Shown here piece after piece: positions 44,480 through 47,400 of a stretch of DNA of 64,000 nt. The position numbers were made by a program. Where the stretch lies: positions 25,420,001-25,484,000 of the forward strand of contig NC_043003.1 of assembly GCF_006345805.1 (NCBI RefSeq), in the 5' to 3' direction. Within the stretch, counting starts at the first letter, position 1. Each line of letters begins with the position of its first letter. This DNA comes from Octopus sinensis (lineage: Eukaryota).

Positions 44480-47400
44480 TTACTTATATATAAAGTATAC
44501 TAGCCATCTCAATATGGCTAACCACTAGGGGTGGGTGTTACTGTAGCTTTTTAGCCCAGGAGATCATCGTCTCCAGCTGGCTTTAGACACAATTTCTGTG
44601 CCCTTATGATATTTGCAAAGGGAGGTCATCCCTCTTGTAAACCTAAGTGATACGCATGGACTGCAGTTTCGAGATTATTGTCTCTTGTCAACACACGATA
44701 ATCACCGGTTTTCGATGAGGAGAGACCTGTTTGCGAATATCTATTTAATGTTTTTCCCAGTAACCACTGACACTGATTTCGAAAAACGGTCTGAAAGCAA
44801 TAATAAATCTCTGAATGAGATGTAAACAGTAAGCGCTTGACAACGTAAAGTATACTAGCCATCTCAATATGGCTAACCACTAGGGGTGGGTGTTACTGTA
44901 GCTTTTTAGCCCCAGGAGATCATCGTCTCCGAGATTTATTATTGCTTTCAGACCGTTTTTTGAAATCAGTGACAGTGGTTACTGGGAAAAACATTAAATA
45001 GATATTCGCAAACAGGTCTCTCCTCATCGAAAACAGGTGATTACCGTGTGTTGACAAGAGACAATAATCTCGAAACTGCAGTCCATGCGTATCACTTAGG
45101 TTTACGAGAGGGGATGACTGCCCTTTGCAAATATCATAAGGTCACAGAAATTGTGTCTAAAGCCAGCTGGAGACGATGATCTCCTGGGGCTAAAAAGCTA
45201 CAGTAACACCCACCCCTAGTGGTTAGCCATATTGAGATGGCTAGTATACTTTACGTTGTCGAGCGCTTACTGTTTACATCTCGTTCAGAGATTTATTATT
45301 GCTTACTTATATATATTTATCCACTAATGCAGTGTGAGCACTCATTCTCATTGATGAATATTAGCATTTATATTGAGTCATCTCAAATAACGCGGGTTTT
45401 TCATTTGCATGAACTAACAGTCGGATGGGGACAGGATAAACTACCTGGACCAACTAGCTATAAAAGCAGGTAGTGACTTTACCTTGAACTTATTCTTAGT
45501 GCAAGTTTTGAAGAGTGCAGTTCAATTTTAAGTTATTTTTACAAAGCTATAATGGAAGTGACAAAGGAGCATATTCAGCATATTTTGCTTTATGAGTTCA
45601 ATAAAGGTAACTATGCAAATGAAAGTGAGACATCTGCATGCCATTGGAAAAGTCAGCAAATTGGGTCAATAGGTTCTTTACAAATTTTCTGAGTCTAACC
45701 ATATGCAGAGAGCAGATGTATGCTCTTCTTTGTTGTCACGTCTCACAAATGAACTTTTTTCAACCGAATAATGACTGGTGACGAGAAATGGGTTCTCTAT
45801 AAATATGTCAAGTGCTGAAGACAGTGGGTAGAGAAAGGAGAAATACCAGCACCCCCGGCTAAAGAAGGTTTTCACCCATGTAAGGTGTTGTTATCTATTT
45901 GGTGGGATATGAAAGGTTTAATCCACTTTGAGCTTTTAAGCCCAAACCAAATGATAACAAAAGGGATCTACTGCAAGCAGCTTGAGTGGCTTAAGTCAGT
46001 GCTAGAAGGAAAATGACCATCCTTGGTTTCAAGATAAAAGGTGTTCTTCCATCAAGATAATGCTCAGCCACATGCAGTGAGAATGACATTACAAAGGTTG
46101 GAGCAGTTTGAATGGGAAACGATGCCCCACCTGCTACATTTACTGGACATTGCCCCATCTGATTATTGTTTATTCCGTAGTCTTCAAAATCATTTGGATG
46201 GAAAAAAATATGATTTCTGTAGACGATGTCAGAACAGTACTGGAGGAATATTTTTCGTCATGGACAAGTGAAATTTGGAAGAGGGGCTTTGCAAGTCTAC
46301 CAGAGAGATGGAAGAGCATTGTAGAAAATGAAGGAGAGCATATTTTGGACTAAAAAAGAACTTTGTTTATCTTAATTTTGAAAAATAAAAGCATAAAAAA
46401 CACATTATTTATGGGATGATCCACTCGGAGTGGTTGGTGTAAGGAAGGGCATCCAGCTGTAGAAATTCTGCCAGATCAGAGTGGAGTCTGGTGCAGCCAT
46501 CTGGTTCACCAGACCTCAGTCAAATTGTCCAACCCATGCTAGCATGGAAAGTGGACGTTAAACGATGATGATATATATATATATATATATATAGTGTATC
46601 CCGGTCGAACCGTCCAACCCGTGCTAGCATGGAAAATGGATGTTAAACGATGATGATGATGATATATATATATATACTGTATATACATACACACTTATAT
46701 ACACGTGTATTTGTTCCCCACCTCCACTTGACAACCATTGTTCATTTGTTTACTTAGCAGCAGCTTAGTAATTTGGCATAAGAGACCAATAGAATAAATG
46801 CCAGCCTTAAGAATAAGTACTGGGGTTGGTTCATTTGACTAAGAGCCTTCAAGGTGGTACCACAGCATAACTGTAGTCCAATGACTGAAACAAGTAAAAA
46901 AGTAAAGGGTTAATGTTGAAGAGTTTTTGAAACATAATCACAGAAGAGATAATACTGTGATGGTATAAGGAAACTATTCTCTTTACTGGAGCCTATATAA
47001 CTCTTTTAATATCAACCCTATCCTGAAACTTCCCTTGTAAGGCTTTGACTGAGATTCACCAAGCAGTGATTTAACATGATTGGATGCTTAAATTTCTAAT
47101 GACCATAGTGATTACATTTGTGTTATCGTTAAATTATAAATATGAGAAGTGAACATTATGTGTGTGTATATATGTGTGTGTGTGTGGGTGACTTTGCAGT
47201 TTCAGTTTGAATTCACAAATGAGAGATTTATCTAGAAACTGATTAGACATTGTGCTTCACTTATGACTATTCCATAAAGATTTTTGGTTAAAAAAGAAAT
47301 TTCAAGAAAACTCAACAAAACCATATCCTTCTTACCTTTCCAGAAAGCTGATTCTGAGAACATGCATTCCTCATATTGATTTGGTACCTATTACTAACAG

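What the first reader, a model, noticed from the sequence alone, without database searches (positions are those of the whole stretch)
44491..45304. Cephalopod retrozyme-like element: circularly permuted ~355-nt monomer carrying hammerhead ribozymes, inserted as a head-to-head pair
Seen: a non-coding ~355-357-nt unit present as 1.24 copies (ribozyme sense on minus) joined at 44930/44931 to 1.05 inverted copies (sense on plus). The pair is flanked by a 13-bp direct repeat in an (AT)n tract, with 2-nt microhomology at both outer ends. Each arm is longer than one monomer, the arms start and stop at different points of the unit, and none of the four ends coincides with the ribozyme cleavage site. 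Established: small tandem non-LTR retrozymes with type I hammerheads produce circular RNAs in several metazoans, and Penelope-like elements carry minimal hammerheads and form tandem or inverted repeats. Inference: this is a genomic footprint of an octopus ribozyme-containing circRNA that was reverse-transcribed around the circle from both target nicks, probably by a Penelope-type RT in trans. I do not know whether this family has been described.
Basis: partly seen in the sequence, partly recalled or inferred. Interest (0 to 1): 0.92.

Follow-up and report, generated by a model that had tools for sequence, protein, structure and literature searches.

The report
Octopus hammerhead retrozyme, head-to-head insertion
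A small non-coding mobile repeat carrying a variant self-cutting RNA motif sits in an octopus genome as two inverted, longer-than-unit copies, in the layout expected when a Penelope-type enzyme copies RNA into both cut DNA strands; it looks like a new family of an already known kind of element.

Summary
A 357-nt non-coding unit is present as 1.23 copies (44491-44930, sense on −) joined at 44930/44931 to 1.05 inverted copies (44931-45304, sense on +). A 13-nt direct repeat at the edge of a (TA)20 tract flanks the pair.

Each arm carries one type-I hammerhead-shaped motif whose core has U3/A8 in place of C3/G8. Rfam does not detect it at any threshold tried. An explicit descriptor hits only these two sites in 128 kb, against 1 of 300 shuffled windows.

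The unit meets the published sequence features of metazoan non-LTR retrozymes. The insertion meets the published Penelope-like (PLE) signature: partial tandem, inverted copy, (TA)n target. The window is octopus, and O. vulgaris is reported to hold recently active PLEs.

Both arms read through the ribozyme cleavage site and through the unit's wrap-around. The template was therefore periodic and either uncleaved or re-ligated.

Copy number, endpoint spread, RNA species and cleavage activity could not be tested, because no cephalopod DNA or RNA collection was available.

Verdict: new member of a known kind, moderate interest.

The parts
44453..44492 (.). (TA)20 microsatellite, part of a larger TG/TA tract from about 44381. 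The insertion lies at its 3' edge.
   Evidence: TRF; sequence
44480..44492 (+). Left copy of the 13-nt target-site duplication. Its last 2 nt are shared with the unit.
   Evidence: Only two occurrences in the window; 2-nt overlap
44491..44930 (-). Left arm: 440 nt, 1.23 units, ribozyme sense on the − strand. It runs from monomer position 323 at the outer (sense 3') end back through 1/357 to 239 at the inner junction.
44659..44691 (-). Hammerhead-like motif of the left arm, from core position 3 to C17. Predicted cleavage is after 44659 on the − strand.
   Evidence: Descriptor hit. Identical to the right-arm motif over this span.
44930..44931 (.). Inner head-to-head (sense 5'-to-5') junction, with no microhomology.
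44931..45304 (+). Right arm: 374 nt, 1.05 units, ribozyme sense on the + strand. It runs from monomer position 1 at the junction through 357 to 17 at the outer (sense 3') end.
45036..45098 (+). Hammerhead-like domain of the right arm including both strands of helix I. Helix I 5' strand 45036-45050; core positions 3-9 at 45051-45057; helix II 45058-45061 paired with 45068-45071; loop 2 45062-45067; G12-A15.1 at 45072-45075; helix III 45075/45082 and 45076/45081; loop 3 45077-45080; C17 at 45083; helix I 3' strand 45084-45098.
   Evidence: MFE folds keep helices I and II
45075..45082 (+). Perfectly self-complementary octamer spanning helix III and loop 3. It allows an 8-bp intermolecular helix III, i.e. 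a double hammerhead.
   Evidence: dimer MFE −36.5 kcal/mol against −28.6 for two separate monomers
45083..45084 (+). Predicted self-cleavage site of the right arm (monomer 153/154). It is internal to the arm.
45303..45315 (+). Right copy of the 13-nt target-site duplication. Its first 2 nt are shared with the unit.

Best explanation
This is one insertion of a non-autonomous, non-coding, 357-nt hammerhead-bearing retroelement of the metazoan non-LTR retrozyme type in an octopus genome.

Shown:
- The unit, its two permuted arms, the TSD and the (TA)n target.
- A type-I hammerhead architecture with a compensated U3/A8 core and a palindromic helix III/loop 3.
- A strand-specific, well-folded sense RNA.

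Inferred mechanism:
1. An endonuclease made nicks staggered by 9-13 bp at the edge of the (TA)n tract.
2. Each of the two 3' overhangs primed reverse transcription on ribozyme-sense RNA, using 2 nt of microhomology, at two different unit positions (323 and 17).
3. Each cDNA ran for more than one unit: 1.23 and 1.05.
4. The two cDNA 3' ends were joined without homology at 44930/44931, and the gaps were filled to give the TSD.

The enzyme most likely came in trans from a Penelope-like element, because two-sided cleavage and extension, internal initiation, AT-rich targets and tandem-plus-inverted products are that family's published behaviour.

The template was periodic and continuous across the cleavage site, so it was either an uncleaved linear oligomer or a re-ligated circle. 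I cannot separate these. I lean slightly to an uncleaved oligomer (about 55:45), because the ribozyme is predicted to be weak as a single motif and published in-vitro work shows unprocessed RNA is used.

This locus has only one ribozyme per strand. It therefore cannot itself release a unit-length RNA and is probably a dead-end copy.
For: Anatomy. TSD unique in the window. (TA)20 target.

Hammerhead descriptor: 2 hits in 128,000 nt, both in the arms. Of 300 dinucleotide shuffles, 1 had any hit and 0 had a hit of the observed quality. With a relaxed/minimal descriptor the same 2 sites are the only hits; 12 of 200 shuffles had at least 1 hit and 1 of 200 had at least 2.

Architecture: helix I 6 bp, helix II 4 bp, helix III 2 bp with a palindromic tetraloop. 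This equals the 'canonical metazoan type I' description in PMC4209133. That paper also reports the natural U3-A8 covariation (about 1,300 hits in Schistosoma) and dual hammerheads 100-700 bp apart on opposite strands (passages); here the two are 360 bp apart. A compensated C3/G8 double mutant partly restores cleavage (PMC11167929 passage).

Dimer: cofold gives an 8-bp intermolecular helix III, −36.5 against −28.6 kcal/mol.

Class features:
- Unit 357 nt and GC 0.42.
- Sense circular fold z = −3.74 and −3.57 (0 of 100 shuffles each), against antisense z = −1.60 (4 of 100).
- No long ORF, and no Pfam family for the two 88-aa ORFs over the element.
- TSD larger than 4 bp.
- These compare with the definition in PMC7229834 (passages).

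PLE signature: partial tandem plus adjacent inverted 5'-truncated copy, with (TA)n bias (PMC8557442 passages). A PLE protein cleaves and extends both strands, starts RT internally and prefers AT-rich targets (PMC11167929 passages).

Orientation: the sense 3' ends face outward, which is 1 of the 4 possible orientations of two fragments. Neither sense 3' end has a poly-A.

Host: octopus. Recently active Penelope-like elements are reported in O. vulgaris, 31 families and 336 insertions (PMC13282606 table passage).

Not an autonomous PLE here: 0 of 119 ORFs of at least 75 aa hit an RT or GIY-YIG family, and both arms wrap unit-to-unit with no ORF between.
Against: - Rfam finds no hammerhead at any threshold tried.
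- Single-motif folds are not significantly stable: z = −1.04 (30 of 200 shuffles as good) and −1.75 (13 of 200).
- I wrote the descriptor after seeing the candidate, and it admits U3/A8 for that reason.
- Cleavage activity is untested, and the G8-to-A change sits in a CpG context, so decay cannot be excluded.
- There is only one locus. No second copy is in the window, and no cephalopod DNA collection could be searched, so multi-copy status and mobility rest on the TSD and the anatomy.
- The arms differ by 2.7%. That needs either two template molecules or post-insertion mutation; 4 of the 10 substitutions are CpG transitions.
- The two RT start points differ by 51 nt, whereas the studied PLE starts at a preferred internal site.
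- The optional 30-40-bp PLE 'tail' is absent.
- No PLE ORF is in the window.
- 2-nt microhomologies in AT-rich DNA are weak evidence.
Confidence: 0.62

Rival explanations
1. One reading: the templates were unit-length circular RNAs (ribozyme-cleaved, then ligated) that were reverse-transcribed around the circle from both nicks. This is a sub-case of the best explanation; the confidence given is for the circle specifically.
For: Both arms exceed one unit and cross both the wrap-around and the cleavage site without a scar. The within-arm overlaps are nearly identical: 1 indel in about 85 nt, and 17 of 17 nt. Circular RNAs are reported as the most abundant retrozyme form in invertebrates, and rolling cDNA synthesis on primed circles is the published model (PMC7229834 discussion passage; PMC4209133 discussion passage). 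The sense circle folds well (z = −3.7).
Against: An uncleaved linear oligomer gives the same product. Ribozyme cleavage was not needed for PLE insertion in vitro, and unprocessed RNA was the main substrate (PMC11167929). The motif has a 2-bp helix III and a variant core, so single-motif cleavage is expected to be poor. The arms are not identical (2.7%). The overlap identity is not significantly better than the between-arm identity: about 2.8 differences expected, 1 seen.
Confidence: 0.28
2. The unit is part of an autonomous Penelope-like element, either a pLTR/UTR or a tandem sub-repeat within it. The locus would then be an ordinary, heavily 5'-truncated PLE insertion with its usual inverted partner, not a separate non-autonomous family.
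For: PLE insertions are typically strongly 5'-truncated and carry an inverted truncated copy, and their hammerheads lie in pLTRs (PMC8557442). A 2026 preprint finds vertebrate retrozymes phylogenetically close to pLTRs (abstract and discussion). Many single or opposite-strand hammerheads in Schistosoma were attributed to truncated PLEs (PMC4209133).
Against: Going 5'-ward, each arm returns directly into the same unit instead of entering an ORF 3' end, and this is seen independently in both arms. So the template period was 357 nt, not kilobases. There is no RT/GIY-YIG ORF among the 119 ORFs scanned. The motif has the canonical-type architecture (4-bp helix II, helix III with palindromic loop), not the PLE minimal type (helix II 7-8 bp, no helix III; PMC4209133).
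Confidence: 0.12
3. Mobilisation by a LINE (RTE, CR1, Dong-R4 or L1-Tx1, all reported as recently active in O. vulgaris) with classical twin priming. The hammerhead-like motif would be irrelevant or decayed.
For: Twin priming gives inverted arms with a TSD and small microhomologies (recalled knowledge of L1 biology; no paper was opened for it). LINE families are listed as recently active in PMC13282606 (table passage).
Against: Neither sense 3' end has a poly-A or a simple-repeat tail, and the two 3' ends lie at different unit positions. That does not fit tail-dependent or 3'-stem-loop-dependent LINE recognition. Twin priming on a linear RNA normally gives non-overlapping segments, whereas here each arm exceeds a full unit. 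(TA)n targeting and the tandem-plus-inverted layout are PLE hallmarks.
Confidence: 0.07
4. DNA-level event: two fragments of a 357-bp satellite, or of its extrachromosomal circular DNA, were captured at a staggered double-strand break by end joining, with no reverse transcription. A variant of this is two independent insertions at one hotspot.
For: The junctions show 0-2 nt of microhomology, typical of end joining. The arms differ by 2.7% and are permuted differently, as two unrelated fragments would be.
Against: A clean 13-nt duplication of unique sequence flanks the whole composite. The outward orientation of both sense 3' ends is the one predicted by target priming, 1 of 4 by chance. Two independent insertions should leave two TSDs or none around the pair.
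Confidence: 0.07

Closest known systems
Metazoan non-LTR retrozymes (Cervera & de la Peña, NAR 2020, PMC7229834; mussel, coral, axolotl)
   Same: Unit size (357 nt, within 150-450). GC 0.42. Non-coding. Type-I hammerhead with a 6-bp helix I, 4-bp helix II and short helix III with a palindromic loop. Head-to-tail continuity of units. TSD longer than 4 bp. Strongly self-paired sense RNA. A host that also carries PLEs.
   Different: The core is U3/A8 rather than C3/G8. This locus has only 1.05 and 1.23 units per arm rather than a dimer-to-multimer array. The arms are head-to-head. No expression, circularity or copy-number data. The searches I ran found no cephalopod family of this kind.
Penelope-like elements and their insertion products (PMC8557442; PMC11167929; PMC4209133)
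   Same: Partial tandem plus adjacent inverted 5'-truncated copy. (TA)n / AT-rich target. Priming from both target strands. RT starts that are internal and not at an RNA end. A hammerhead in the repeat. The U3-A8 covariant is known from Schistosoma PLE-related motifs. Opposite-strand hammerhead pairs 100-700 bp apart are also known.
   Different: No RT/GIY-YIG ORF. The period is 357 nt. The hammerhead is of the canonical type rather than the minimal PLE type. No 30-40-bp tail. The two RT start points are 51 nt apart rather than at one preferred site.
Amphibian satellite 2 / axolotl retrozymes (as described in PMC7229834)
   Same: A roughly 330-350-nt unit. A very short helix III capped by a palindromic tetraloop, so that efficient cleavage is expected only as a double hammerhead.
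   Different: Different phylum and sequence. Canonical core in amphibians. Huge tandem arrays there, against one short inverted pair here.
Rfam Hammerhead_1 (RF00163)
   Same: Same topology (helix I open) and the same conserved GAAA / helix III / U-H cleavage layout, by my own descriptor.
   Different: Not detected by the covariance model at gathering or at E<=10. Rfam-based annotation, such as the 235 Hammerhead_1 loci reported in the giant squid (PMC6962438), would miss this family.
L1 twin-priming inversions (recalled; no paper opened)
   Same: Two cDNAs primed from both staggered nicks, joined 5'-to-5', flanked by a TSD.
   Different: No poly-A. Each arm is longer than a full unit. Both priming sites are internal to a periodic template.

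Membership tests
Metazoan non-LTR retrozyme | Contains a type-I hammerhead motif (helices II and III closed, helix I open) | tested here: met
   My own descriptor finds 2 sites in 128 kb, both in the arms. Shuffles: 1 of 300. The caveats are that the descriptor was written post hoc and that Rfam is negative.
Metazoan non-LTR retrozyme | Short repeat unit of about 150-450 bp arranged head-to-tail (dimers to multimers) | tested here: inconclusive
   The unit is 357 nt and unit-to-unit continuity is seen in both arms. But there are only 1.05 and 1.23 units at this locus, and no array is in the window.
Metazoan non-LTR retrozyme | Low GC (<45-50%); no LTR, PBS or PPT; non-coding | tested here: met
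   GC is 0.42. Every frame has at least 4 stops per turn. There is no Pfam hit for the ORFs over the element. PBS and PPT were not searched for specifically.
Metazoan non-LTR retrozyme | TSD, when present, larger than 4 bp | tested here: met
   13 nt, or 9-13 after allowing for the 2-nt overlaps.
Metazoan non-LTR retrozyme | Highly self-paired unit-length RNA | tested here: met
   Circular sense fold −99.8 kcal/mol, 63% paired, z = −3.74 (0 of 100 shuffles). The antisense strand gives z = −1.60.
Metazoan non-LTR retrozyme | [quoted passage not shown] | not testable with these tools
   No RNA data and no bench work.
Metazoan non-LTR retrozyme | Multi-copy, dispersed in the genome | not testable with these tools
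   There is only one locus in the window. The only open DNA collection is prokaryotic, and it gave 0 hits.
Metazoan non-LTR retrozyme | Co-exists with autonomous PLEs in the host | not tested
   From the literature only: the table in PMC13282606 lists 31 recently active Penelope-like families in O. vulgaris. None is in this window.
Canonical hammerhead core | C3 and G8 in the catalytic core | tested here: not met
   The core at 45051-45057 has U3 and A8. This is a Watson-Crick-preserving covariation also reported in nature (PMC4209133).
Rfam Hammerhead_1 (RF00163) | Scores at or above the family's gathering threshold | tested here: not met
   not listed even at E<=10.
Autonomous Penelope-like element | ORF with RT and GIY-YIG endonuclease between pLTRs | tested here: not met
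   0 of 119 ORFs of at least 75 aa match RT or GIY-YIG. The arms wrap unit-to-unit.
PLE-type insertion product | Partial tandem plus adjacent inverted 5'-truncated copy | tested here: met
   compared with PMC8557442.
PLE-type insertion product | AT-rich / (TA)n target | tested here: met
   (TA)20 at 44453-44492. GC is 0.195 in 44300-44499.
PLE-type insertion product | Optional 30-40-bp 'tail' extension at one end | tested here: not met
   The unit abuts the TSD directly at both ends. The feature is optional in the literature.
tRNA-derived SINE | tRNA-like head with A and B boxes | tested here: not met
   ARAGORN finds 0 genes. There are 0 A-box (<=1 mismatch) and 0 B-box (<=2 mismatches) matches on either strand. 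The box consensus sequences were recalled.

The most novel reading that the evidence does not exclude
The locus is a fossil of rolling-circle reverse transcription. A dimeric Penelope-type RT nicked both strands of a (TA)n site, and each subunit copied a retrozyme circular RNA for more than one turn from a different start point. If genome-wide copies in octopus show endpoints spread all around the 357-nt circle, arms regularly longer than one unit and sense 3' ends next to the TSDs, that would be the first direct genomic evidence in an animal that ribozyme-processed circRNAs are retrotransposition templates and that PLEs mobilise them. It would also define a canonical-architecture hammerhead family with a U3/A8 core that current Rfam-based annotation cannot see.
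Probability: 0.28. Interest if true: 0.65.

Novelty: new member of a known kind. Interest (0 to 1): 0.42.

Why it matters
Animal retrozymes are thought to spread through circular RNAs using Penelope-like enzymes. Published support is mostly co-occurrence and, for vertebrates, similarity to pLTRs. The 2026 preprint says it offers little empirical evidence on the life cycle and did not examine invertebrates.

A clean, TSD-bounded insertion whose two arms start at different unit positions, exceed unit length and face outward is a structural footprint. It links a retrozyme-type unit to PLE-style two-sided target priming in a mollusc. It also turns the circle-versus-oligomer question into a simple genome-wide endpoint survey.

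It further shows that a hammerhead family with a compensated U3/A8 core escapes Rfam, so ribozyme counts in cephalopod genomes are probably underestimates.

Tried and rejected
- **Rfam** at three settings found no ribozyme. The best sub-threshold hit, MIR6217 (74.4 bits against a gathering score of 110; 44738-45004, − strand), and the mir-297/mir-1277-type hits are artefacts of the inverted repeat and the TG/TA microsatellite.
- **Canonical CTGATGA box:** 8 matches in the window, none in the element.
- **Single-motif thermodynamics** are not significant.
- **tRNA/SINE head:** I thought part of the unit resembled a tRNA D-arm. ARAGORN found nothing, and there are no A or B boxes (an attempt with the DNA search failed on pattern format). 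Idea dropped.
- **Coding potential:** no Pfam family for the ORFs over the element and no open circular frame, although 357 = 3 x 119.
- **Other copies:** none in the window. The only open whole-collection scan (prokaryote genomes) gave 0 matches to a 22-nt ribozyme stretch, as expected; it says nothing about octopus. A second scan was not used. The phage, plasmid and E. coli collections were not searched because they cannot hold this sequence.
- **PLE remnants shorter than 75 aa** were not scanned for.
- **Minimal (PLE-type) hammerheads elsewhere in the window:** none.
- **Mariner TIR pair** near the insertion: none found in 45300-47100.
- **Biochemistry of the C3U/G8A double change:** search returned 8 papers, and the only hammerhead paper among them merely contains the consensus string. 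A 2007 RNA paper by Przybilski and Hammann on exchanges of this base pair is recalled only and was not seen.
- **Assembly fold-back artefact:** rejected, because the flanks differ, a TSD is present, and the arms are permuted and 2.7% different.
Supplements of PMC7229834, PMC4209133, PMC8557442 and PMC13282606 may list cephalopod hammerheads or a consensus containing this unit.
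Full report
**1. What is in the sequence**

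The region 44491-45304 consists of two inverted arms of one 357-nt unit.

The right arm, 44931-45304 on the + strand, is 374 nt with an exact period of 357 (17 of 17 matches at that offset and at most 8 at any other offset from 350 to 361). It covers monomer positions 1 to 357 and on to 17, which is 1.05 units.

The left arm, 44491-44930, read on the − strand, aligns end to end with the same unit from position 239 through 357/1 to 323. That is 440 nt, or 1.23 units.

The arms differ at 12 of 442 aligned columns:
- six transitions, four of them at CpG sites;
- four transversions;
- two single-G indels.

Within the left arm, the part present twice differs by one G in a G-run. The 17 nt present twice in the right arm are identical.

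The pair is bounded by the 13-nt string TTACTTATATATA at 44480-44492 and 45303-45315. These are its only two occurrences on either strand of the window. The string overlaps the unit by exactly 2 nt at each outer end. The inner junction at 44930/44931 has no microhomology.

The left flank is a TG/TA microsatellite that ends in a (TA)20 tract at 44453-44492. GC falls to 0.195 in 44300-44499.

No other copy of the unit is in the window. The five blastn alignments with E<0.01 all lie inside the element, and the other 27 listed alignments have E>=0.23 and are at most 25 nt long.

**2. The ribozyme claim**

This is the weakest part of the observation as written.

Evidence against a standard hammerhead:
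- The canonical CTGATGA box is absent from the element (8 matches in the window, none in 44491-45304).
- Rfam finds nothing at gathering in the whole window.
- Rfam finds no ribozyme among 19 matches at E<=10 on 1.2 kb, and nothing at E<=10 on the 86 nt around the candidate.

What is present in the right arm is a complete type-I layout:

| Element | Coordinates |
|---|---|
| Helix I, 5' strand | 45036-45050 |
| Seven-nt core (positions 3-9) | 45051-45057 |
| Helix II, 4 bp | 45058-45061 with 45068-45071 |
| Loop 2, 6 nt | 45062-45067 |
| GAAA (G12 to A15.1) | 45072-45075 |
| Helix III, 2 bp | 45075/45082 and 45076/45081 |
| Loop 3, 4 nt | 45077-45080 |
| U16.1, then C17 | 45082, 45083 |
| Helix I, 3' strand | 45084 onward |

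The first 6 bp of helix I are contiguous. The left arm carries the identical motif on the − strand (44691-44659).

The core departs from consensus at positions 3 and 8, which are U and A instead of C and G. These two positions pair with each other, so the change is compensatory.

An explicit descriptor, admitting C3/G8 or U3/A8, hits only these two places in the 128,000 nt of both strands. Of 300 dinucleotide-preserving shuffles of the window, 1 gave any hit and 0 gave a hit as good as the observed one. A looser descriptor that also admits PLE-type minimal hammerheads again finds only these two sites. Of 200 shuffles, 12 had at least one hit and 1 had two.

I wrote the descriptor after seeing the candidate, so these rates are optimistic. 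Even so, the chance rate for a 357-nt unit is very small.

Thermodynamics of the isolated motif is not significant: z = −1.04 and −1.75, with 30 and 13 of 200 shuffles folding as well.

The octamer 45075-45082 is perfectly self-complementary. Cofolding two copies gives the classical double hammerhead with an 8-bp intermolecular helix III, at −36.5 kcal/mol against −28.6 for two separate monomers.

**3. How this compares with published hammerheads**

From passages of Cervera and de la Peña 2014 (PMC4209133):
- Most metazoan type-I hammerheads have a 6-bp helix I, a 4-bp helix II and a helix III of 1-2 bp capped by a small palindromic loop. They are expected to cleave as dimers. That is the architecture found here.
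- A natural U3-A8 covariation exists, with about 1,300 hits in Schistosoma mansoni.
- Dual hammerheads occur 100-700 bp apart on opposite strands. The two motifs here are 360 bp apart on opposite strands.

From passages of Frangieh et al. 2024 (PMC11167929): single C3 or G8 changes abolish cleavage, and a compensated double mutant (C3G/G8C) partly restores it.

I found no open paper on the activity of the specific C3U/G8A pair. A 2007 study that I recall was not seen.

Activity of this motif is therefore plausible but untested. The G8-to-A change lies in a CpG context, so decay is not excluded. The simultaneous compensating change at position 3, shared by both arms, argues for covariation; this is my inference.

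**4. The unit as a whole**

- GC is 0.42, against 0.35 for the window.
- Folded as a circle, the ribozyme-sense strand gives −99.8 kcal/mol with 63% of bases paired and z = −3.74 (0 of 100 shuffles as stable).
- The left-arm version gives z = −3.57 (0 of 100).
- The antisense strand gives z = −1.60 (4 of 100).
- The strand asymmetry fits an RNA selected to fold in the ribozyme polarity.
- Every reading frame has at least four stops per turn.
- The two 88-aa ORFs that overlap the element match no Pfam family.
- There is no tRNA gene and no A- or B-box match, so it is not a tRNA-derived SINE.

These features match the published definition of metazoan non-LTR retrozymes (passages of PMC7229834):
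- repeats of 150-450 bp with type-I hammerheads;
- low GC;
- no LTR, PBS or PPT;
- TSDs larger than 4 bp when present;
- highly self-paired RNAs of about 170-400 nt.

What this locus lacks is a true array. Each arm only just exceeds one unit.

**5. Host and surroundings**

A 352-aa IS1595-type transposase ORF at 2972-4027 (−) is 99% identical over 88% of its length to NCBI XP_029639225.1, labelled Octopus vulgaris. The next best hit is 51% identical. The window is therefore octopus.

Of 119 stop-to-stop ORFs of at least 75 aa, 7 match any Pfam family at E<=0.01, and none matches a reverse transcriptase or GIY-YIG endonuclease. The seven are:
- the IS1595 transposase;
- two C2H2 zinc-finger ORFs;
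- a mariner fragment;
- a thioesterase-like exon;
- two weak sub-threshold hits.

A decayed mariner lies just downstream, at about 45477-46353.

From the literature:
- A 2026 repeat annotation of O. vulgaris lists 31 recently active Penelope-like families with 336 insertions. Its main text never mentions ribozymes, retrozymes or satellites (PMC13282606).
- An earlier comparison also counts Penelope among the enriched coleoid families (PMC8967140).
- The giant squid genome paper reports 235 Rfam Hammerhead_1 loci without further analysis (PMC6962438).

**6. Mechanism**

*Orientation.* The sense 3' end of each arm is the outer end, next to a TSD copy. The two sense 5' ends meet at the centre.
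- This is what is expected if staggered nicks left two 3' overhangs carrying the 13-nt target sequence.
- Each overhang would then have primed cDNA synthesis inward on ribozyme-sense RNA.
- Of the four possible orientations of two fragments, only this one fits.

*Priming points.* They were at unit positions 323 and 17, which are 51 nt apart. Each has 2 nt of possible pairing, and neither has a poly-A.

*Template.* Each cDNA crossed the 357/1 wrap-around and the predicted cleavage site at 153/154 without interruption. This excludes a cleaved linear monomer as template. It requires a periodic RNA that was either never cleaved or re-ligated.

*Published Penelope-like element behaviour that matches:*
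- insertions as partial tandems, often with an adjacent inverted 5'-truncated copy;
- a bias toward (TA)n (PMC8557442 passages);
- in vitro, a PLE protein that cleaves and extends both target strands, unlike R2 and L1;
- a predicted dimer (PMC11167929 passages).

*What is shown and what is inferred.* Shown: the anatomy, the orientation and continuity across the cleavage site. Inferred:
- reverse transcription itself;
- priming from both nicks;
- the PLE origin of the enzyme;
- homology-free joining at the centre.

**7. Circle or linear oligomer**

It fits the data. So does an uncleaved oligomeric transcript from a tandem array.

- The within-arm overlaps show 1 difference in about 102 nt. At the between-arm divergence, about 2.8 would be expected, which is not a significant deficit.
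- The motif here, with a 2-bp helix III and a variant core, should cleave poorly as a single unit.

I therefore treat template topology as unresolved, with a slight lean to an uncleaved oligomer.

The 2.7% difference between the arms means one of two things. Either two different RNA molecules served as templates, which is plausible for a dimeric enzyme and a heterogeneous RNA population. Or the copies have diverged since insertion. Four CpG transitions spread over both arms fit the second reading.

**8. Rivals**

- *Part of an autonomous PLE (a pLTR).* Not excluded. It is disfavoured by the unit-to-unit wrap-around in both arms, by the absence of an ORF, and by a hammerhead of the canonical rather than the PLE minimal type.
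- *LINE twin priming.* Disfavoured by the lack of any tail and by two different 3' ends.
- *DNA-level capture of satellite or eccDNA fragments, or two independent insertions.* Disfavoured by the single clean TSD and the outward orientation.
- *Assembly fold-back.* Excluded by the distinct flanks, the TSD, and arms that are permuted and diverged.

**9. Novelty**

All the concepts are in print: retrozymes, PLE-type two-sided priming, the U3-A8 covariation and circRNA templates. What appears new is this family in a cephalopod.

- Two of my searches required both terms. They returned 5 papers holding both 'hammerhead ribozyme' and 'octopus' and 30 holding 'ribozyme' and 'cephalopod'.
- None of the listed titles and abstracts, and none of the papers I opened, describes an octopus or cephalopod retrozyme.
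- The 2026 preprint on retrozyme origins covers vertebrates only.
- Repbase, Dfam and all supplementary files could not be consulted. The unit may already sit in a repeat library under an uninformative label, such as 'unclassified SINE' or 'unknown' in PMC13282606.

**10. What stayed unchecked**

- Copy number, endpoint distribution, arrays and orthologous empty sites in octopus genomes. No eukaryotic DNA collection was open, and the prokaryote scan gave 0 hits.
- RNA species and circularity.
- Ribozyme activity.
- PLE remnants shorter than 75 aa in the window.

This locus has one ribozyme per strand. It cannot itself release a unit-length RNA and is probably a dead-end copy. A transcript across both arms would instead fold into a long hairpin, which is why Rfam's plant miRNA model MIR6217 gives a sub-threshold hit there.

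Noticed in passing
window 45477-46353 (+): A decayed mariner-type transposase lies immediately downstream of the insertion. Pfam gives HTH_48 at 22.6 bits (below its cutoff) and Transposase_1 at 67.1 bits. The reading frame is broken by stops and frameshifts, and no terminal inverted repeat pair was found in 45300-47100.
   Followed up: partly
window 2972-4027 (−): An intact 352-aa ISXO2/IS1595-type transposase ORF, 99% identical to an NCBI protein labelled Octopus vulgaris. Relatives at 40-51% identity occur in sea spiders, gastropods and Argonauta. This is a eukaryotic IS1595-like element, or a domesticated copy, that still looks coding.
   Followed up: partly
window 8493-9020 (−) and 18746-19624 (−): Two multi-finger C2H2 zinc-finger ORFs. 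A further finger-like ORF lies at 23203-23571 (+) without a Pfam hit. This suggests the window lies in a zinc-finger gene cluster.
   Followed up: no
window 27457-27810 (+): A second mariner transposase fragment (Transposase_1, 81 bits).
   Followed up: no
window 42651-42932 (−): A thioesterase-like (4HBT_2, 51 bits) open frame about 1.6 kb upstream of the insertion, possibly an exon of a host gene. Whether the element sits in an intron was not determined.
   Followed up: no
window 44738-45004 (−): A sub-threshold Rfam hit to the plant miRNA family MIR6217 (74.4 bits against a gathering score of 110) spans the inner junction. It reflects the long hairpin a read-through transcript of the inverted pair would form, which could be a substrate for dsRNA pathways. 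It is not a miRNA gene.
   Followed up: partly
window 44931-45287: The unit length of 357 is a multiple of three (3 x 119), but every frame on both strands has at least 4 stops per turn. There is therefore no endless circular ORF.
   Followed up: yes
window 49940-50687 and 54122-54716 (−): Long overlapping open frames rich in Ser, Leu, Pro and Phe with no Pfam family. They look like low-complexity or simple-repeat DNA rather than genes.
   Followed up: no
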